From NCBI RefSeq assembly GCF_036507355.1, contig NZ_AP027877.1: 64,000 nt of DNA; one strand, given 5' to 3'. Shown here piece by piece: positions 11,874 through 50,375 of this stretch (position 1 is the stretch's first letter; each line of letters begins with the position of its first letter). The position numbers were made by a program, and so were the translations under genes. The stretch is from Escherichia coli. Lineage in GTDB: Bacteria; Pseudomonadota; Gammaproteobacteria; Enterobacterales; Enterobacteriaceae. A model generated the notes under the pieces. It saw only the letters and a list, made by a program, of their open reading frames with translations, did no database searches and was not told the DNA's origin.

Positions 11874-13223
11874 ATGTTAATTAATAAAAGCAACGGATTT
11901 AACGCTAGCGCAGTTTTGGGTAGTGGAAATTATAATGAAAATAAATCTTCTAAACACATGGAGCTACTAGCTCATAGTATTGTAAAATTAATTTGTAAGG
12001 AAGCTGCATCAGAGACGTATCGCGGTGCTCTTGAAACTTTACAAAAAATGATGTCTGAATGTAAATATAAAGAAGGCAACGCCTTTGTCATTATGGGTGC
12101 TGGAGGGCAATTAAAACGTATTAAATATGATGTTGATGAAAATAAATTAAAAATATTCAACATATACTTTGATAATAATTACGAGGTAGTTACTGATGGT
12201 GAGCCTGACGTAGTATGTTTAAGCAAGCAGGTCTGGGAAAATCTTCTCATTAAATTAAAACCGGAGATTAAAGAAAATGTGTTTTCTGAAAATAACAAAT
12301 TATCGAGAGAAAATAATGTTGATCAGTATGTTCAATCCGCTAAAAGAAATGAACAGGCCCTTTTCGATAATATAATAAAAAGTGATTTTCATGTTGCTTC
12401 ACTTCAGCCAGGTAGAACACGTAGTGTTATTTCAGAAACGCCGCCAAATGACTGTATGGAATCACGTAATTCATATGAAAACCAAATAGATGAGATTTCA
12501 TCTTTGTCAGAGTCAAAGGAACACCCTATAGATATTCAAGAAAAAACAGATGCGTTTGTGAATGAGTTCAAGGGGATATTATTTGATCAAAATGGAAGGT
12601 CTTCAGAGTTTCTACTTAATTTTTATGAATGTTGCTATGTGTTTTTACCAAGAGCGCAGCCTCAGGATAAAATCGAAAGCTATAATTCAGCACTGCAAGC
12701 TTTTTCCATCTTTTGTTCATCTACGTTGACACATAATAATATAGGCTTTGATTTCAAATTATTTCCAGAAGTCAAGCTGTCTGGAGAACATCTTGAAACG
12801 GTATTCAAATACAAAAATGGCGATGATGTCCGGGAGATAGCCAAAATTAACATTTCTCTCCAAAAAGAAGAGGGTGGTTTATATAATTTACGTGGATTGG
12901 ATTTTAAGGGATGCTTCTTTTCTGGACAGAACTTCAGTAACTATGATATTCAATACGTGAACTGGGGAACGTCATTGTTTGATGTTGATACTCCGTGTAT
13001 TTTTAATACGCCTGCTAACAATGAGAGTTATGAAAAATCATTAAAACCTGTAAGCGAAAACGGTTTAAATGGAGTCTTATCTGATCGTATTAAAAAAATA
13101 AAAATGATCACGGGTGTGGCACCATTCGATGATATTTTATTTATGGATGATGACTTTGATGATAACTCCCCTGAGGATGGTCCCGTTGAGAATATTCCTG
13201 TTATGAATAGTCCTCTTGTATAA
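11874..13223 (+). CDS. Hypothetical protein, 449 aa, AT-rich orphan (ypjB/ypjC-like by position)
   Basis: Intact ORF with GAGGAA RBS 6 nt upstream of ATG; Ser/Asn-rich N-terminus without signal peptide; pentapeptide-repeat-like stretch NLRGLDFKGCFFSGQNFSNYDIQYVNWGTSLFDV; acidic C-terminus. Confidence 0.65.
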   Translation: MLINKSNGFNASAVLGSGNYNENKSSKHMELLAHSIVKLICKEAASETYRGALETLQKMMSECKYKEGNAFVIMGAGGQLKRIKYDVDENKLKIFNIYFDNNYEVVTDGEPDVVCLSKQVWENLLIKLKPEIKENVFSENNKLSRENNVDQYVQSAKRNEQALFDNIIKSDFHVASLQPGRTRSVISETPPNDCMESRNSYENQIDEISSLSESKEHPIDIQEKTDAFVNEFKGILFDQNGRSSEFLLNFYECCYVFLPRAQPQDKIESYNSALQAFSIFCSSTLTHNNIGFDFKLFPEVKLSGEHLETVFKYKNGDDVREIAKINISLQKEEGGLYNLRGLDFKGCFFSGQNFSNYDIQYVNWGTSLFDVDTPCIFNTPANNESYEKSLKPVSENGLNGVLSDRIKKIKMITGVAPFDDILFMDDDFDDNSPEDGPVENIPVMNSPLV

Positions 13224-13580: not shown

Positions 13581-13820
13581 AACCGTGGCAGGAGGTCCGG
13601 ACTGAAAAAACTGCTCAGGACATCATCGGCAGGGAACGCACTGCTAGTCTGTAAACTGAACCGACTGGGGCGCAGTATGTGGCATCTTGTCGTGCTGTTG
13701 GAGGAGCTGTGCGAACGTGGTATTAACTTTCGTGCTCTGGCCCAATCTATATTTGCCCAACAATGGGGGGACGAATGCTGTAAAAGTAAAACAATCTGCG
13801 ATCTCAAAGTTATTGTGTGA
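13581..13820 (+). pseudogene. Internal fragment of a resolvase/invertase-type serine recombinase (pinH-like remnant)
   Basis: Open frame ...[36 protein letters not shown]... matches the conserved serine-recombinase catalytic-domain core; N-terminal Ser region and C-terminal HTH absent. Confidence 0.5.
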
Positions 13821-14158
13821 TTTTTATGTGAGCAGAAGATATTCATCAGAAACGATTATGTAAATCATTTTATTTTGCCAACGGCCTCATTGTCGAAAGA
13901 AAAGAATACGCCCGTGTTTCCTGAATAGATTGACTTTTTTATCTAACCACACTTCAGCGCACTGCGTTTAAAAAATGCCTCATTCTTATGCGGAATATCA
14001 TCATTTCATCATGATGTCTTTGATGAGCGGTGAACACAATACACTTGCGCTGTCTCTTCAGGATGAATCCCCTGGTCTGGTGCCTGTGGGCTGATGTTGC
14101 AGCAAAGCTAAGGTCGCTTAAACGCTACTCAGTATTCACTTTTCAGAGGATGAAATTT

Positions 14159-15653
14159 ATGAACAGGACCAGTCCCTATTATTTTCGCCGCTCAGTACTT
14201 TCCTTATTGATATCTACCTTAATATATGCCCAGCCCGGGATGGCGGCCTTCACTACTAATGTTATTGGTGTGGTAAACGATGAGACTGTAGATGGCAACC
14301 AACGAGTAGATGAACGAGGTACAACAAATAACACTCATATTATCAACCATGGCCGGCAGGAGGTCTATGGTGGGATATCTAATAGTAGTATTATTGAAAC
14401 TGGTGGCGAGCAACTAGTATCAATCCATGCCGATATTAACGGGCAAGCTAATAATACAACCATTAATGGAGGCAGACAGTCAATTGAGTACGGAGGAATT
14501 TCTACTAGCACGATAATCGAAAGTGGCAATCAATATGTTCATAAAGGTGGTACCAGCAATGACACGACAATTAAGGGCGGTACTTCACGCATAGAGGGGG
14601 GGACTGCAAATGGAACAATCATTGATGGTGGTAGCCAACAAGTAACAACTCAGGGGCATGTTGACGGTACAACGATAAATAAGTCTGGCTCTCAGGACGT
14701 AGTACAAGGAAGTCTGGCAACGAACACAACCATAAATGGTGGTCGACAGTATGTTGAACAGAGCACAGTAGAAACAACAACCATTAAAAATGGCGGTGAG
14801 CAAAGAGTATATGAGAGCCGTGCGCTGGACACGACGATTGAAGGCGGAACTCAGTCTCTGAATAGTAAGTCAACGGCAAAAAATACACAGATCTATTCTG
14901 GTGGCACGCAAATTGTTGATAACACCAGCTCCTCGGATGTTATTGAAGTTTATTCCGGTGGCGTGCTTGATGTTAGTGGTGGTACGGCAACAAATGTTAC
15001 CCAGCACGATGGTGCAATTTTAAAAACTAACACTAACGGTACGACGGTGAGCGGTACGAATAGTGAAGGTGCATTCTCCATCCACAATCACGTGGCAGAC
15101 AATGTGTTGCTGGAAAACGGTGGTCATTTAGACATAAACGCATATGGTTCGGCAAACAAGACGATTATTAAAGATAAAGGAACAATGTCAGTTTTAACCA
15201 ATGCTAAAGCTGATGCGACCCGAATAGATAATGGCGGGGTTATGGATGTTGCAGGAAACGCGACAAATACCATAATTAATGGTGGCACACAGAATATTAA
15301 TAATTATGGCATAGCCACAGGCACCAATATCAACAGCGGAACGCAAAATATCAAAAGCGGCGGGAAAGCTGACACAACAATTATATCCTCCGGGAGCCGG
15401 CAGGTTGTTGAGAAAGATGGTACGGCAATTGGCAGCAATATTAGCGCCGGAGGCTCGCTGATTGTCTATACCGGCGGTATTGCACATGGGGTTAACCAGG
15501 AGACGGGCAGTGCTTTAGTTGCCAACACGGGTGCAGGGACTGATATCGAAGGATACAACAAGCTCTCTCACTTCACTATTACCGGAGGGGAGGCTAATTA
15601 TGTTGTGCTGGAAAACGCTGGCTCATTAACAGTCGTCACTGGTTCCCGGGCAG
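14159..15653 (+). pseudogene. 5' portion of an AIDA-I/Ag43-type autotransporter adhesin (ypjA-like); signal peptide plus repetitive passenger, truncated by IS1
   Basis: GAGGA RBS, start MNRTSPYYFRRSVLSLLISTLIYAQPGMA (signal peptide); ~19-aa repeats of the type NGGxQxVxxGGxAxxTTI; frame runs into IS1 at 15654 with no beta-barrel domain. Confidence 0.75.
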
Positions 15654-15708
15654 GGTGATGCTGCCAACTTACTGATTTAGTGTATGATGGTGTTTTTGAG
15701 GTGCTCCA

Positions 15709-15984
15709 GTGGCTTCTGTTTCTATCAGCTGTCCCTCCTGTTCAGCTACTGACGGGGTGGTGCGTAACGGCAAAAGCACCGCCGGACATCAGCGCTATCT
15801 CTGCTCTCACTGCCGTAAAACATGGCAACTGCAGTTCACTTACACCGCTTCTCAACCCGGTACGCACCAGAAAATCATTGATATGGCCATGAATGGCGTT
15901 GGATGCCGGGCAACAGCCCGCATTATGGGCGTTGGCCTCAACACGATTTTACGTCACTTAAAAAACTCAGGCCGCAGTCGGTAA
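15709..15984 (+). CDS. insA: IS1 InsA
   Basis: Protein identical to the InsA at 8363-8638. Confidence 0.95.
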
Positions 15985-16406
15985 CCTCGCGCATACAGCC
16001 GGGCAGTGACGTCATCGTCTGCGCGGAAATGGACGAACAGTGGGGCTATGTCGGGGCTAAATCGCGCCAGCGCTGGCTGTTTTACGCGTATGACAGGCTC
16101 CGGAAGACGGTTGTTGCGCACGTATTCGGTGAACGCACGATGGCGACGCTGGGGCGTCTTATGAGCCTGCTGTCACCCTTTGACGTGGTGATATGGATGA
16201 CGGATGGCTGGCCGCTGTATGAATCCCGCCTGAAGGGAAAGCTGCACGTAATCAGCAAGCGATATACGCAGCGAATTGAGCGGCATAACCTGAATCTGAG
16301 GCAGCACCTGGCACGGCTGGGACGGAAGTCGCTGTCGTTCTCAAAATCGGTGGAGCTGCATGACAAAGTCATCGGGCATTATCTGAACATAAAACACTAT
16401 CAATAA
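15903..16406 (+). CDS. insB: IS1 InsB reading frame
   Basis: Protein identical to the InsB at 8557-9060. Confidence 0.93.
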
Positions 16407-16421
16407 GTTGGAGTCATTACC

Positions 16422-17239
16422 GAGGTTTTGTTATATATGTTGTTTCCAATATATTTTTCATTTGTCAAAATTTGATGTATTTTTGCACGAGTCCATAATG
16501 TTCCATTTTCTGCAGGTATGTTCTGTTCATTTAATCTCTCAGCAATAATGAATTCTGGGACGTTATTATCTATAAAGAGATCATATATTCTATTTACAAT
16601 TTTTATTTCATTTTTTGGTCCCGGAATTAATATTACCCTATCTGTTTGAATACTCTTTCTTTTGCGGAAACTCAATATTTCTTTAGCTATGCCATTTTCG
16701 TCTACTAAAAGACGTCTCAGCCCATAACCAGCCATACCGCCTTGATGATAACCAAGCTTTATTAAATTTACTTGCCCTATAAATACCTTTTCAGATAGAT
16801 TCCTGCTGTGATATGCAGCACTAGATCTTTTTATATTCAGTATAACAGAGGACTCTAAAGGGAAATCTTTAGTGGGTATAGGTTCGGAACAATATATAAG
16901 ATCTACACCATTTCTCTCAAATAGAAAGGAATAATATGCCGCTTCATCACTATTTTGAAAACGACCAAAACGGCTCACATCATAAAATAATACAGCCTGT
17001 ATATCTATTTTCTTTTGTTCTACATCGCTAAGTAACTGCTGCAAAGAATGCCTGCCTACGATACTGACTCCGCTCTTACCTGCATCATCGTAGGTATAAG
17101 CGATTTCCATATTGTTCTTTTCAGCATAATCTTTGATATATTCGGACTGATTATGTAAAGAATATTGCTGATGGTCGGTAGACATCCTCAAGTACTGCGC
17201 GACCCTAACTCTATGATTTTTTTCATTTTCGCTAGCCAT
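16422..17239 (-). pseudogene. Large serine recombinase, N-terminal ~270 aa; 3' end removed at the IS1 junction
   Basis: MASENEKNHRVRVAQYLRMSTDHQQYSLHNQSEYIKDYAEKNNMEIAYTYDDAGKSG... (catalytic Ser motif), ...LWTRAKIHQILTNEKYIGNNIYNK recombinase domain; ORF continues a few codons into IS1; AT-rich. Confidence 0.7.
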
Positions 17240-17521
17240 GCACGAAACCTCATGGATGATTCAATACAATGTAGTGGATAAAATTGATCAAATTTTAACC
17301 GAATTCAACTGTTTTATCATTGATTAGAGCGAATTTGGTAGATCTTCGAGGTGTATGATAATCGAGAAGAGATGTGAATTATTTAGCTGATATGACCGAC
17401 AGCTTTCGTTATGTGGACTCAATGTCCCCATTTGTAAATGGCTATGCTTAGTCCACATAGGTTAATGGTGTGATTATTAATTCTTTAACTAAATCAAGAT
17501 AGTTAATCCATCATGGGAGAG

Positions 17522-18751
17522 TTATGCGGCAATAACTTTGCATTTTTGAGACGAAACATAGTCACTCCACCATTGCATGAGAACCACCCGTTCAGTGAGA
17601 TACTCTGCACGATTGTAGGCTGCAATTATTTCATCTTTCTTCGAGTGGGCAAGGGCGGCTTCTAAGACATCAGTCCTAAACTTGCCAGACTCCTCAGCAG
17701 CCGTTCTAGCAATGGATCGCATACCGTGAGCTACAAGCTCACCTCCGAAACCCATACGGATTATGGCCGCATTAGCTGTTTGTTCATGCATGTGATTGAG
17801 TGGAGCTTTGATACTGGGGAACACCCACTCTCTATGCCCGCTGATGACTTTCATTAAATCCAAAACTCGCAAAGCTTCTTTGCTCAGTGGAACTTTGTGA
17901 GGCTTCTTCATTTTCATAAACTCCGCCGGGATGTTCCACATGCCAGTTTCAATATCAATATCTGACCATCTTGTGCGAACAGCTTCACCTGGGCGAACCC
18001 ATGTGAGAAGTTGCCACTCAATCAGTAGCCTTGTTTCCAAACGGATAGAAGCATTGTTTAGAGCAACCAAGAAGCGAGGGAGTTCGGAAGGGGGTAATGC
18101 TGGCATATTCTGTTTTTTTGGCTTGCTGAACCGTTGCCCCAGGTTGTCTGCCGGGTTGAATTCTATGAGTTCTTCTGTTGCTGCATAGCGGAAAATTTCA
18201 TTCAGGCGGGATATGATGCGGCGAAGTGTTTCAAGGACACCTCGTTTTTCTATGGGTTCTAAATGCTGTTTAAGCATTTTAGGGCGAATCTCCTTAATTG
18301 GGGTATCACCCAATGTGGAAAAGATATTTCTCTCTAGGCTTCGCCAGATGTCGTTAGCATGATCTTGGGAGATGCCTGACGTTTTGACTTTCTCATCAAG
18401 CCACTTCTTGGCTACTGCTTGAAATGTATGTTCCGTGGCATCTTTCAGTGCATTGGCTTTTTGGTTGTTATGAACTTGGGGGTCTATACCATTTGTAAGC
18501 AACGACAAGTATTCATCACGTAAAGCTCGTGCCTTCGCAAGTGTAAGGTGAGGATAGGTTCCTAAGCTCACCTTAGTTCGCTTTTTGGTCACAGGCACTG
18601 CATATCTGAAATACCAATTTTTCTTCCCTCCCTTCGCCAGGGGAGCGATTCGCAACAGCAAACCATCGCCGTCAAAAAGGTTAACCTCTTTTTCGGCAGG
18701 TTTGGTGCTTTTGATTTCAGTGTCAGTGAGCTTCTTAGCGATTTTGGCCAT
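17522..18751 (-). CDS. P4-type tyrosine integrase (phage/island integrase), ~409 aa
   Basis: ORF 17522-18832; start placed at ATG 18749-18751 (MAKIAKKLTDTEIKSTKP...) with GAGGG RBS; N-terminal arm-binding-like region and C-terminal catalytic region (...HGMRSIARTAAEESG...); adjacent to ssrA 3' end. Confidence 0.85.
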   Translation of the reverse strand: MAKIAKKLTDTEIKSTKPAEKEVNLFDGDGLLLRIAPLAKGGKKNWYFRYAVPVTKKRTKVSLGTYPHLTLAKARALRDEYLSLLTNGIDPQVHNNQKANALKDATEHTFQAVAKKWLDEKVKTSGISQDHANDIWRSLERNIFSTLGDTPIKEIRPKMLKQHLEPIEKRGVLETLRRIISRLNEIFRYAATEELIEFNPADNLGQRFSKPKKQNMPALPPSELPRFLVALNNASIRLETRLLIEWQLLTWVRPGEAVRTRWSDIDIETGMWNIPAEFMKMKKPHKVPLSKEALRVLDLMKVISGHREWVFPSIKAPLNHMHEQTANAAIIRMGFGGELVAHGMRSIARTAAEESGKFRTDVLEAALAHSKKDEIIAAYNRAEYLTERVVLMQWWSDYVSSQKCKVIAA

Positions 18752-18850
18752 GTTTGGGACCCTCGATTTTAGGACCCATCTTCGTGGGTCCCATTCAGGG
18801 TGCCATAACTCGTAGTTCTCAGCAATTCTCACTAGACTACAATAGACGTA

Positions 18851-18917: not shown

Positions 18918-19280
18918 TGGTGGAGCTGGCGGGAGTTGAACCCGCGTCCGAAATTCCTACATCCTCGGTACTACATGCTTAGTCAGTCTTTACATTCGCT
19001 TGCCAGCTGCGGACGGACACGCCACTAACAAACTAGCCTGATTAAGTTTTAACGCTTCAACCCCAGGCAGGGCTTCCACGCGATCTCTTTTGGGTTTGAC
19101 CTCTCTTGATCCCCGTCCTAAGAGCGGAGGCTAGGGAGAGAGGGCTCTAAGCAGGTTATTAAGCTGCTAAAGCGTAGTTTTCGTCGTTTGCGACTATTTT
19201 TTGCGGCTTTTTACGAGGCCAACCGCCCCTCGGCATGCACCTTGGGTTTCGCAAATCCCGTCGAATCCAGAATCAGCCCC
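18918..19280 (-). ncRNA. ssrA: tmRNA (SsrA), 363 nt
   Basis: Reverse complement begins GGGGCTGATTCTGGATTCGACGGGATTTGCG and ends ...GTTCAACTCCCGCCAGCTCCACCA; tag-peptide reading frame region present. Confidence 0.97.
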
Positions 19281-37852: not shown

Positions 37853-39278
37853 TAATGCCGATCAGTTAAGGATCAGTTGACCGATCCAGTGGCTGTGTAA
37901 GAATCCGGAAACGCTCACTCGTTTCCGGATTTTTTTATGCACATTGGACAGGCTCTTGATCTGGTATCCCGTTACGATTCTCTGCGTAACCCACTGACTT
38001 CTCTGGGGGATTACCTCGACCCCGAACTCATCTCTCGTTGCCTTGCCGAATCAGGTACTGTAACGCTACGCAAGCGCCGTCTTCCCCTCGAAATGATGGT
38101 CTGGTGTATTGTTGGCATGGCGCTTGAGCGTAAAGAACCTCTTCACCAGATTGTGAATCGCCTGGACATCATGCTGCCGGGCAATCGCCCCTTCGTTGCC
38201 CCCAGTGCTGTTATTCAGGCCCGCCAGCGCCTGGGAAGTGAGGCTGTCCGCCGCGTGTTCACGAAAACAGCGCAGCTCTGGCATAACGCCACGCCGCATC
38301 CGCACTGGTGCGGCCTGACCCTGCTGGCCATCGATGGTGTGTTCTGGCGCACACCGGATACACCAGAGAACGATGCAGCCTTCCCTCGCCAGACACATGC
38401 CGGGACCCCGGCGCTCTACCCGCAGGTCAAAATGGTCTGCCAGATGGAACTGACCAGCCATCTGCTGACGGCTGCAGCCTTCGGCACGATGAAGAACAGC
38501 GAAAATGAGCTTGCTGAGCAACTTATAGAACAAACCGGCGATAACACTCTGACGTTAATGGATAAAGGTTATTACTCACTGGGATTGTTAAATGCCTGGA
38601 GCCTGGCGGGAGAACACCGCCACTGGATGATCCCTCTCAGAAAGGGAGCGCAATATGAAGAGATCAGAAAACTGGGTAAAGGCGATCATCTGGTGAAGCT
38701 GAAAACCAGCCCGCAGGCACGAAAAAAGTGGCCGGGACTGGGAAATGAGGTGACAGCCCGCCTGCTGACCGTGACGCGCAAAGGAAAAGTCTGCCATCTG
38801 CTGACGTCGATGACGGACGCCATGCGCTTCCCCGGAGGAGAAATGGCGGATCTGTACAGTCATCGCTGGGAAATCGAACTGGGATACAGGGAGATAAAAC
38901 AGACGATGCAACTGAGCAGGCTGACGCTGAGAAGTAAAAAGCCTGAGCTTGTGGAGCAAGAGCTGTGGGGTGTCTTACTGGCTTATAATCTGGTGAGATA
39001 TCAGATGATTAAAATGGCGGAACATCTGAAAGGTTACTGGCCAAATCAACTGAGCTTCTCAGAATCATGCGGAATGGTGATGAGAATGCTGATGATATTG
39101 CAGGGCGCTTCATCGGGACGTATACCGGAGCTGATGCGCGATCTTGCAAGTATGGGACAACTTGTGAAATTACCGACAAGAAGGGAAAGGGCCTTCCCGA
39201 GAGTGGTAAAGGAGAGGCCCTGGAAATACCCCACAGCCCCGAAAAAGAGCCAGTCAGTTGCTTAACTGACTGGCATTA
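37853..39278 (+). mobile_element. IS4 insertion sequence (1426 bp) flanked by a 12-14 bp direct repeat cagctcaagggctg
   Basis: Imperfect terminal inverted repeats TAATGCCGATCAGTTAAG... (37853-) and ...CTTAACTGACTGGCATTA (-39278); direct repeat at 37839-37852 and 39279-39292. Confidence 0.9.
37937..39265 (+). CDS. insG: IS4 transposase (DDE), 442 aa
   Basis: [63 protein letters not shown]... Confidence 0.92.
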
Positions 39279-44599: not shown

Positions 44600-44604
44600 A
44601 TGAT

Positions 44605-44632
44605 AAAACGAGCCCTTCGGGGCTCGTTTTTG
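44605..44632 (+). terminator. Rho-independent terminator of clpB
   Basis: acgagccc-ttcg-gggctcgt followed by TTTTT. Confidence 0.8.
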
Positions 44633-44713
44633 TCTATAAGTTAGACGGAAAAGACTATATTTAAGATGTTTTGCCTGAAAAGTGAGCGAACGATAAAGTT
44701 TTTATATTTTTCG

Positions 44714-44742
44714 CTTGTCAGGCCGGAATAACTCCCTATAAT
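44714..44742 (+). promoter_or_regulatory. rRNA operon promoter P1 (with upstream A/T-rich UP element)
   Basis: TTGTCA (44714-44719), 17-nt spacer, TATAAT (44737-44742), then gcgccacc discriminator. Confidence 0.85.
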
Positions 44743-44832
44743 GCGCCACCACTGACACGGAACAACGGCAAACACGCCGCCGGGTCAGCGGGGTTCTCCT
44801 GAGAATTCCGGCAGAGAAGGCAAAAATAAATG

Positions 44833-44861
44833 CTTGACTCTGTAGCGGGAAAGCGTATTAT
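44833..44861 (+). promoter_or_regulatory. rRNA operon promoter P2
   Basis: TTGACT (44833-44838) and TATTAT (~44856-44861). Confidence 0.75.
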
Positions 44862-45042
44862 GCACACCCCGCGCCGCTGAGAAAAAGCGAAGCGGCACTG
44901 CTCTTTAACAATTTATCAGACAATCTGTGTGGGCACTCGAAGATACGGATTCTTAACGTCGCAAGACGAAAAATGAATACCAAGTCTCAAGAGTGAACAC
45001 GTAATTCATTACGAAGTTTAATTCTTTGAGCATCAAACTTTT

Positions 45043-46584
<1,542 letters not shown>

Positions 46585-46669
46585 CCTTAAAGAAGCGTTC
46601 TTTGTAGTGCTCACACAGATTGTCTGATAGAAAGTGAAAAGCAAGGCGTCTTGCGAAGCAGACTGATAC

Positions 46670-46745
46670 GTCCCCTTCGTCTAGAGGCCCAGGACACCGC
46701 CCTTTCACGGCGGTAACAGGGGTTCGAATCCCCTAGGGGACGCCA
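46670..46745 (+). tRNA. gltW: tRNA-Glu (anticodon UUC) in the 16S-23S spacer
   Basis: gtccccttcgtctagaggcccaggacaccgcccTTTCAcggcggtaacaggggttcgaatcccctaggggacgcca. Confidence 0.95.
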
Positions 46746-46938
46746 CTTGCTGGTTTGTGAGTGAAAGTCGCCGACCTTAATATCTCAAAACTCATCTTCG
46801 GGTGATGTTTGAGATATTTGCTCTTTAAAAATCTGGATCAAGCTGAAAATTGAAACACTGAACAACGAGAGTTGTTCGTGAGTCTCTCAAATTTTCGCAA
46901 CACGATGATGAATCGAAAGAAACATCTTCGGGTTGTGA

Positions 46939-49841
<2,903 letters not shown>

Positions 49842-49933
49842 ACAACGCCGAAGCTGTTTTGGCGGATGAGAGAAGATTTTCAGCCTGATACAGATTAAAT
49901 CAGAACGCAGAAGCGGTCTGATAAAACAGAATT

Positions 49934-50053
49934 TGCCTGGCGGCCGTAGCGCGGTGGTCCCACCTGACCCCATGCCGAACTCAGAAGTGAAACGCCGTAG
50001 CGCCGATGGTAGTGTGGGGTCTCCCCATGCGAGAGTAGGGAACTGCCAGGCAT
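49934..50053 (+). rRNA. rrfG: 5S ribosomal RNA, 120 nt
   Basis: TGCCTGGCGGCCGTAGCGCGGTGGTCCCACCTGACCCCATGCCGAACTCAGAAGTG...AACTGCCAGGCAT. Confidence 0.98.
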
Positions 50054-50065
50054 CAAATAAAGCGA

Positions 50066-50093
50066 AAGGCCATCCTGACGGATGGCCTTTTTG
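50066..50093 (+). terminator. rRNA operon terminator hairpin
   Basis: aaaggccatcc-tgac-ggatggccttttt. Confidence 0.85.
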
Positions 50094-50375
50094 CATTGGC
50101 GCAGAAAAAAATGCCTGATGCGACGCTGCGCGTCTTATACTCCCACATATGCCAGATTGAGCAACGGATACGGTTTCCCCAACTTGCCTACTTCCATACG
50201 TGTCCTCCTTACCAGATATTTATCCTTAAGCTCCTCAATAACCATTTTCCTGCTAACTAAATTCATGGTTAAGGTTGCATAATGATACGCAACAAATGTA
50301 TAACATTTTCTTTACAAAAAGAAATAAACAAAAGCGACCGACAAAAGCATCGGATTACGGCAGGAGACTAATGGC

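What the first reader, a model, noticed from the sequence alone, without database searches (positions are those of the whole stretch)
14159..15653. Autotransporter adhesin reduced to signal peptide plus ~500 aa of repetitive passenger
The ORF has a typical autotransporter signal peptide and tandem ~19-aa AIDA-type repeats (…NGGRQSIEYGGISTSTIIESG… repeated many times) but stops where IS1 begins, with no autochaperone or beta-barrel translocator. It cannot be exported as an autotransporter. If expressed it would be a periplasmic repeat protein, but it is more likely a dead gene. The nucleotide repeats are also a substrate for slippage.
Basis: partly seen in the sequence, partly recalled or inferred. 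Interest (0 to 1): 0.35.

Follow-up and report, generated by a model that had tools for sequence, protein, structure and literature searches.

The report
IS1-truncated ypjA/ehaD adhesin pseudogene
This is the front third of a well-known E. coli surface-adhesin gene (ypjA/ehaD) that was cut off by an IS1 mobile element and lost the part needed to reach the cell surface, so it is an ordinary dead gene remnant.

Summary
An ORF runs from the ATG at 14159 to a TGA at 15656-15658 (499 aa). It encodes a Sec signal peptide and degenerate 18-19-aa AIDA-type repeats, and it ends exactly where a complete 768-bp IS1 (15654-16421) begins. The stop codon lies inside the IS1 terminal repeat.

The gene is the 5' part of ypjA/ehaD. 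It shows 94% aa and 97-98% nt identity to residues 1-486 of a 1524-aa full-length allele, in the conserved ileY-ypjCB-pinH'-ypjA-ssrA setting. Missing are about 930 residues: further AIDA repeats, the pertactin-type autochaperone region and the beta-barrel. None of these is encoded elsewhere in the window.

This IS1 copy has no target-site duplication, and its other side abuts a half-deleted serine recombinase of an ssrA island. The truncation was therefore an IS1-associated deletion, not a simple insertion.

One new detail is that the remnant also carries a 285-bp (95-aa) in-frame deletion, with its crossover in an 11-nt microhomology between two diverged repeat units.

The "slippage-prone nucleotide repeats" remark is only weakly supported, because there are no DNA tandem repeats. 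ypjA is accessory and often broken by IS elements across E. coli. This is ordinary and of low interest.

The parts
14159..15653 (+). ypjA/ehaD 5' remnant (ypjA'). It corresponds to codons 1-486 of the reference, then codons ~582-591. It encodes the signal peptide and about 470 aa of AIDA-type beta-helix passenger.
   Evidence: BLASTP gives 468/498 identical to residues 1-496 of the 1524-aa YpjA of HS30-1. Nucleotide identity to E. coli ypjA is 97-98%. Pfam AIDA in 6 stretches.
14159..14245 (+). Predicted Sec signal peptide (29 aa, cleavage after GMA)
   Evidence: Inspection of the translation. No ESPR domain found. No predictor was run, so this is an inference.
15605..15615 (+). Crossover zone (GTGCTGGAAAA) of a 285-bp in-frame deletion within ypjA'
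   Evidence: The window equals the upstream repeat copy through 15615 and the copy 285 bp downstream from 15605 onward. This holds in three reference alleles.
15654..16421 (+). Complete IS1 (768 bp; insA 15709-15984, insB' 15903-16406). Its left inverted repeat supplies the stop codon 15656-15658. No target-site duplication.
   Evidence: Inverted-repeat match. 0/768 mismatches to the IS1 at 8308. Flanks are GTTCCCGGGCAG and GAGGTTTTGTTA. 99.3-99.6% identical to IS1A in reference genomes.
16400..17239 (-). Truncated large serine recombinase of an ssrA-integrated island. 273 of 518 codons remain, followed by a 6-codon read-through into IS1.
   Evidence: Pfam Resolvase and Recombinase. 273-aa identical prefix with the 518-aa protein of strain ST540.
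17522..18832 (-). P4-type tyrosine integrase of the same ssrA island
   Evidence: Pfam Arm-DNA-bind_3, Phage_int_M and Phage_integrase. 100% nt identity to many E. coli genomes.
18918..19280 (-). ssrA (tmRNA), the island's integration site and the conserved right-hand neighbour of ypjA
   Evidence: ARAGORN. Synteny in HS30-1, where ypjA ends 160 bp from ssrA.
13584..13751 (+). pinH-like recombinase fragment upstream of ypjA (conserved synteny marker)
   Evidence: Coordinates were transferred from the RefSeq annotation of L002 7072-7239 through the collinear alignment. Not tested independently.

Best explanation
The ORF is a non-functional remnant of the chromosomal type Va autotransporter adhesin gene ypjA/ehaD.

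In the ancestral arrangement, a ~4.6-kb ypjA lay between ypjCB/pinH' and an island integrated at ssrA. An IS1-associated deletion fused ypjA at reference codon 591 to codon 273 of the island's serine recombinase. The deletion arose either by intramolecular IS1 transposition or by recombination between two direct IS1 copies. It removed 2.8 kb of ypjA (further AIDA repeats, the pertactin-type autochaperone, the linker and the 12-stranded barrel) together with most of the island.

Separately, a 285-bp in-frame deletion removed 95 aa, about five beta-helix rungs, between two diverged repeat units at an 11-nt microhomology. The order of the two events is unknown.

The promoter-proximal region, start codon and signal peptide are intact, so some transcription and Sec export are possible. 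Without a covalently linked barrel, however, the passenger cannot cross the outer membrane. By analogy with other secretion-incompetent autotransporter species, the product would be degraded in the periplasm by DegP.

Shown: gene identity, truncation point, missing domains, lack of target duplication, and the internal deletion. Inferred: the deletion mechanism, the expression state and the fate of the product.
For: Identity and synteny:
- 94% aa identity to residues 1-496 of full-length YpjA.
- 97-98% nt identity to ypjA annotated 'adhesin-like autotransporter YpjA/EhaD'.
- Flanking tRNA-Ile(CAT), ypjCB, pinH' and ssrA match the E. coli references.

Missing domains:
- The full-length protein has Pertactin at 1055-1177 and the Autotransporter barrel at 1263-1502.
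- The window ORF has the AIDA domain only.
- No barrel or pertactin sequence occurs elsewhere in the window.

IS1 deletion:
- IS1 at 15654-16421 has no target-site duplication. The sequence-identical IS1 at 8308 has the 8-bp duplication ATATTTTG.
- The right flank is a recombinase cut at codon 273 of 518.

Internal deletion:
-.

The locus is prone to such events:
- Independent IS1, IS3 or IS5 disruptions or deletions appear in XJ34, TKEC21-59, AF43, ST540, CFSAN061772 and MLI110.
- RefSeq flags 3'-truncated ypjA copies as pseudogenes.
- Only 2441 of 5426 genomes hold at least 80% of the gene, while 2760 hold the 5' 1.75 kb.

Fate of the product:
- Secretion-incompetent autotransporter species are degraded by periplasmic DegP (PMC5802855).
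Against: - Nothing shows that the remnant is silent. The upstream region is collinear with intact alleles, and the ORF has no internal stops or frameshifts over 499 codons.
- dN/dS against the closest allele is 0.40 on only 26 differences. That neither shows nor excludes relaxed constraint.
- Only 64 kb of the genome is visible, so a second ypjA copy or a separate barrel elsewhere in the genome cannot be excluded.
- The consensus promoter scan found no convincing sigma-70 site on the + strand upstream. That is uninformative either way.
Confidence: 0.93

Rival explanations
1. The truncated gene is expressed and yields a stable periplasmic, or leaked, beta-helical repeat protein. That protein has some residual or new role, for example perturbing the envelope or titrating chaperones.
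For: The start codon, ribosome-binding site, signal peptide and 499-codon ORF are intact, and the upstream region is conserved. The sequence matches solved Ag43 and TibA beta-helices, which can fold autonomously in vitro.
Against: Autotransporter beta-helices normally fold from the C-terminal autochaperone end, which is missing (PMC5767081). Secretion-incompetent species are cleared by DegP. The single-sequence AF2 model is of low confidence, with mean pLDDT 54. The same gene is truncated at many different points in other genomes, so no particular fragment is selected for. No other database sequence shares this junction.
Confidence: 0.04
2. The structure is an assembly artefact. A full-length ypjA would have been collapsed or mis-joined at IS1 and at the internal repeats.
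For: IS copies and repetitive passengers are classic sources of misassembly. The exact IS1 junction and the 285-bp deletion allele were not found in 5426 E. coli genomes, the GTDB representatives or metagenome contigs.
Against: A mis-join would have to explain both IS1 flanks, each reading cleanly into a different truncated gene in a locus where real IS1 deletions are seen in many finished genomes. The internal deletion has only 11 nt of homology, with about 25-40% divergence around it, which is too little for repeat collapse. The deletion is exactly in frame.
Confidence: 0.03

Closest known systems
YpjA/EhaD of E. coli (K-12 ypjA; EHEC O157:H7 ehaD), a type Va autotransporter adhesin linked to adhesion and biofilm formation
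   Same: This is an orthologous gene at the orthologous locus. Identity is 94-98% over the first ~486 codons, with the same start and signal peptide and the same AIDA-type repeats. Reviews place YpjA in the biofilm-forming adhesin group with Ag43, AIDA-I and TibA (PMC9289746; PMC3796261).
   Different: The last ~930 residues are missing, including the pertactin/autochaperone region and the beta-barrel. A 95-aa internal deletion is present, and the gene ends in an IS1-encoded stop.
Annotated ypjA pseudogenes in other E. coli genomes (for example XJ34 KFZ60_RS05595 'missing C-terminus'; AF43, where ypjA is split by IS1)
   Same: The same gene is inactivated by loss or interruption of its 3' part, often through IS1, in the same ileY-ssrA interval.
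   Different: The breakpoint differs. AF43's IS1 lies about 160 bp further downstream and is a simple interruption that keeps the 3' half. XJ34 keeps 2214 bp. No other genome searched shares this junction or the 285-bp deletion.
Self-associating autotransporters Ag43, AIDA-I and TibA
   Same: Same repeat type (PF16168 and the TIGR04415 strand-loop-strand unit). Sequence matches to the solved beta-helix passengers 7KO9, 7KOH, 4KH3 and 4Q1Q at E 1e-26 to 1e-35.
   Different: Far below the NCBIfam equivalog cut-offs: 195 bits against 1200 for Ag43, and 136 against 1200 for AIDA-I. About 30-38% identity. No ESPR signal extension.

Membership tests
Classical (type Va) autotransporter | N-terminal Sec signal peptide | tested here: met
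   Charged n-region (R3, R10, R11), 13-residue hydrophobic core, and G-M-A at -3/-1 before A30. This was judged by inspection of the translation, as no dedicated predictor was available.
Classical (type Va) autotransporter | Passenger domain (beta-helical repeat stalk) | tested here: met
   PF16168 AIDA at 203.7 bits in 6 stretches. Matches to solved Ag43 and TibA passengers. The AF2 model is all-beta but of low confidence, pLDDT 54.
Classical (type Va) autotransporter | Autochaperone / pertactin-type junction region at the C-terminal end of the passenger | tested here: not met
   PF03212 is present at 1055-1177 of the full-length reference. It is absent from the window ORF and from the whole window.
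Classical (type Va) autotransporter | C-terminal 12-stranded beta-barrel translocator (PF03797 / TIGR01414) | tested here: not met
   Present at 1263-1502 of the reference. Absent from the ORF. A tblastn search with reference residues 1051-1524 against the window gives only E >= 7.
ypjA/ehaD orthologue (as a gene remnant) | High sequence identity to ypjA and conserved position between ileY-ypjCB-pinH' and ssrA | tested here: met
   97-98% nt and 94% aa identity. Synteny.
Ag43/Cah or AIDA-I proper | Score above the NCBIfam equivalog cut-off (1200 bits) | tested here: not met
   194.8 and 136 bits. The full-length YpjA also fails, at 343 and 258 bits.
IS1 element | 768 bp, terminal inverted repeats, insA and insB' with the A6C frameshift site | tested here: met
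   Inverted-repeat match. ORFs of 91 and 167 aa. TTAAAAAAC at ~15958. 99.3-99.6% identical to annotated IS1A.
Simple IS1 insertion | 8-9-bp direct target-site duplication flanking the element | tested here: not met
   Flanks are CCCGGGCAG and GAGGTTTTG. The control IS1 at 8308 has ATATTTTG on both sides.

The most novel reading that the evidence does not exclude
The barrel-less, 95-aa-shortened YpjA fragment is made, exported by Sec and persists as a folded periplasmic or released beta-helix with a function of its own. Alternatively, the in-frame five-rung deletion arose before the IS1 event, as a functional length variant of the adhesin. That would show microhomology-driven rung-number variation in SAAT-type passengers.
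Probability: 0.03. Interest if true: 0.4.

Novelty: already known. Interest (0 to 1): 0.08.

Why it matters
It matters little. It is one more example of IS1-driven decay of an accessory adhesin gene, in a chromosomal interval (ileY-ssrA) that is rearranged by IS elements in many E. coli genomes.

Practical points:
- The ORF should be annotated as a ypjA pseudogene, not as an adhesin.
- Adhesin or virulence-gene typing tools that score the 5' part of ypjA would wrongly count this strain as ypjA-positive.
- The IS1 junction and the 285-bp deletion are lineage-specific markers, not seen in any collection searched.

Tried and rejected
- The source genome and other carriers of the same allele could not be found. 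The IS1 junction gave nothing in 5426 E. coli genomes, GTDB representative genomes or metagenome contigs. The deletion junction gave nothing in E. coli genomes or metagenome contigs.
- Exact-protein look-ups all came back 'not on record'. These covered the 499-aa and 502-aa ORF versions, the recombinase remnant and YpjCB.
- The search for homologous proteins was swamped by repeat-sharing fragments and returned no near-identical full-length hits, so it was not used further.
- The single-sequence AlphaFold model was too poor for a fold search (pLDDT 54), and none was run.
- The GTG at 14030 (542-aa ORF) and the ATG at 14150 were rejected as starts. The annotated ATG at 14159 fits better, because its spacing to AGAGGA is right and it agrees with RefSeq.
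- dN/dS of 0.40 on 26 differences is uninformative.
- Roux et al. 2005 (PMC545717), the primary ypjA paper, is not held. It is cited only through reviews.
- The promoter scan gave nothing above shuffle expectation.

Full report
**What is in the sequence**

An ORF on the + strand runs from the ATG at 14159 to a TGA at 15656-15658, giving 499 aa. The longest mechanical ORF starts at a GTG at 14030. The ATG at 14159 is the better start, for two reasons. It sits 10 nt downstream of AGAGGA, and it corresponds exactly to the RefSeq start of ypjA in E. coli HS30-1 (L002:7647).

From 15654 to 16421 lies a complete 768-bp IS1. It has its left inverted repeat GGTGATGCTGCCAACTTACTGAT, insA, insB' and the A6C frameshift site. 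The stop codon of the ORF lies inside that inverted repeat.

**Signal peptide and repeats**

The N-terminus, MNRTSPYYFRRSVLSLLISTLIYAQPGMA|AFTT, has the three regions of a standard Sec signal peptide, with a small-residue -3/-1 motif. This judgement is by inspection, since no predictor was available. It is an ordinary 29-aa signal, not the extended ESPR-type signal typical of many large autotransporters. Pfam PF13018 is not detected here, although it is present in Ag43-like hits.

The mature part is repetitive at the protein level:
- Pfam AIDA (PF16168) scores 203.7 bits in six stretches.
- The TIGR04415 strand-loop-strand repeat scores 149 bits in seven stretches.
- BLOSUM autocorrelation peaks at lags 18 and 19 (z 8.5 and 6.2 against 200 shuffles), with harmonics at 36, 54, 72 and 90.

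The units are degenerate, with about 18% identity at the repeat lag. At DNA level Tandem Repeats Finder reports nothing even at minimum score 30. The best DNA lag identity is 36%, and direct repeats are short and 65-85% alike.

**What gene it is**

Megablast against 5426 complete E. coli genomes identifies the region as ypjA, annotated 'adhesin-like autotransporter YpjA/EhaD', at 97-98% nt identity. BLASTP against the 1524-aa YpjA of HS30-1 gives 468/498 identities over reference residues 1-496.

That full-length protein carries ten AIDA stretches, a Pertactin domain (PF03212) at 1055-1177, a proline-rich linker and the autotransporter barrel (PF03797, TIGR01414) at 1263-1502.

The neighbourhood is the conserved one: tRNA-Ile(CAT) at 11048, ypjCB at 11874-13223, a pinH-like fragment, ypjA and, further right, ssrA at 18918-19280. 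Core genes to the right are about 99% identical to E. coli, so the window comes from E. coli or Shigella. The exact strain is not in any collection I could search.

**What is missing**

The ORF has neither a pertactin/autochaperone region nor a barrel. A tblastn search with reference residues 1051-1524 against all six frames of the window finds nothing better than E = 7. The rest of the genome is not visible.

**How the truncation arose**

The window holds two IS1 copies that are identical in sequence (0/768 mismatches).
- The copy at 8308-9075 sits inside an alpha-amylase-family gene and is flanked by an 8-bp target-site duplication, ATATTTTG. It is a simple insertion.
- The copy at 15654-16421 has unrelated flanks...CCCGGGCAG and GAGGTTTTG....

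To the right of the second copy is not ypjA but the 5' 273 codons of a 518-codon large serine recombinase. That remnant reads six codons into IS1. Next come a P4-type integrase and ssrA.

In strain ST540 the same integrase and recombinase (100% nt identity) belong to an ssrA island that continues with two ParB genes and a type I restriction-modification system. The IS1 therefore marks a deletion that removed the 3' 2.8 kb of ypjA together with most of that island. Intramolecular IS1 transposition and recombination between two direct IS1 copies would give the same product. The sequence cannot tell them apart, so the mechanism is an inference.

**A second lesion**

The collinear alignment to full-length alleles stops at window 15615. 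The last 38-49 nt before IS1 match perfectly a position 285 bp further downstream in the reference gene. Base-by-base comparison with three alleles (XJ34, HS30-1, AF43) shows two things. The window equals the upstream repeat unit through 15615 (56/56), and it equals the downstream unit from 15605 (49/49 in two alleles, 48/49 in AF43). The units share only the 11 nt GTGCTGGAAAA and diverge strongly on either side.

This is a 285-bp, 95-aa in-frame deletion of about five beta-helix rungs, formed at a microhomology between two '...N-x-V-L-E-N-x-G-x-L-T-V-V...' units. It means the IS1 junction corresponds to reference codon 591, not 499.

None of about 2750 E. coli genomes that carry this part of ypjA has the deletion. 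All top hits need two pieces spanning 409 bp for the 124-bp query. Metagenome contigs do not have it either. The event was illegitimate recombination between distant diverged units, not slippage in a tandem array.

**How ordinary it is**

ypjA is an accessory and frequently damaged gene. Only 2441 of 5426 complete genomes hold at least 80% of it, and 2760 hold the 5' 1.75 kb. So roughly 300 genomes have a 5' remnant comparable to this one. Most of the rest match only through the barrel of a paralogue.

RefSeq marks several copies as pseudogenes:
- XJ34: 'missing C-terminus', 2214 bp left.
- AF43 and relatives: ypjA split by IS1 about 160 bp downstream of this junction.
- MLI110: interrupted by IS5.

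The ileY-ssrA interval carries independent IS1-associated deletions in TKEC21-59, ST540 and CFSAN061772, each with a different breakpoint.

**Likely fate of the product**

YpjA/EhaD is grouped with the biofilm-forming, self-associating adhesins Ag43, AIDA-I and TibA. Reviews report that it promotes adhesion and biofilm formation (PMC9289746; PMC3796261; PMC12547504). Its autochaperone has been catalogued (PMC5767081).

Type Va secretion requires the passenger to be covalently linked to its own barrel. Secretion-incompetent autotransporter species are degraded by periplasmic DegP (PMC5802855). The upstream region and start are intact, so a transcript and a Sec-exported 470-aa fragment are possible. 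The fragment could not reach the surface and would most likely be degraded. That step is an inference.

dN/dS against the closest allele is 0.40 on 26 differences, which is uninformative. The single-sequence AlphaFold model is all-beta with short regular strands but of low confidence (pLDDT 54). I did not run a fold search. Sequence matches to the solved Ag43 and TibA passengers (E 1e-26 to 1e-35) are the better evidence for a beta-helix.

**Verdict**

- The signal peptide is a plain Sec signal.
- The IS1 event was a deletion rather than an insertion.
- There are no DNA tandem repeats, but there is one microhomology deletion.

This is a ypjA pseudogene of a kind already annotated in many genomes. 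Only the particular breakpoints are new. Interest is low.

Noticed in passing
window 8308-9075 (+), within the ORFs at 7811-8284 and 8995-10488 (-): A second IS1, sequence-identical to the one at 15654, interrupts an alpha-amylase-family glycosyl hydrolase gene. It has a clean 8-bp target-site duplication, ATATTTTG. Other E. coli genomes carry IS1 at different sites in or next to this gene.
   Followed up: partly
window 37853-39278 (+): A 1426-bp IS4 lies between raiA and bamD. It has a 442-aa transposase (Pfam Nterm_IS4 and DDE_Tnp_1). The reference sequence overlaps by about 14 bp at the two junctions, consistent with a target duplication.
   Followed up: partly
window 15605-15615: ypjA' carries a 285-bp in-frame deletion (95 aa, about five rungs) at the 11-nt microhomology GTGCTGGAAAA. 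It was not found in any E. coli complete genome or metagenome contig searched.
   Followed up: yes
window 16400-18832 (-): This is the remnant of an ssrA-integrated island: a P4-type integrase plus a large serine recombinase cut at codon 273 of 518. In ST540 and CFSAN061772 the same island continues with two ParB-family genes and, in ST540, a type I restriction-modification system. In every genome inspected its far end is truncated by IS1.
   Followed up: partly
window 11874-13223 (+): ypjCB is intact here (449 aa, DUF5507 and DUF5508). In several E. coli genomes it is split, truncated or interrupted by an IS element. Its function is unknown, and the region is very AT-rich (GC 0.33-0.36).
   Followed up: no
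window 2093-8310 versus 16422-37852: The gabDTP-lhgO-glaH (csiD) region is only about 96% identical to E. coli references, whereas the core genes right of ssrA are about 99% identical. This suggests a divergent or recombined allele block on the left side.
   Followed up: no
window ~44600-50370: This stretch has no ORF of at least 150 aa and contains tRNA-Glu(TTC) at 46670-46745. That is consistent with an rRNA operon but was not checked with Rfam.
   Followed up: no
window 13975-14094 (+): A 39-codon ORF lies just upstream of ypjA. RefSeq annotates it as a conserved 'hypothetical protein' (WP_001120794.1) in other genomes. It lies in the presumed ypjA promoter/leader region.
   Followed up: no
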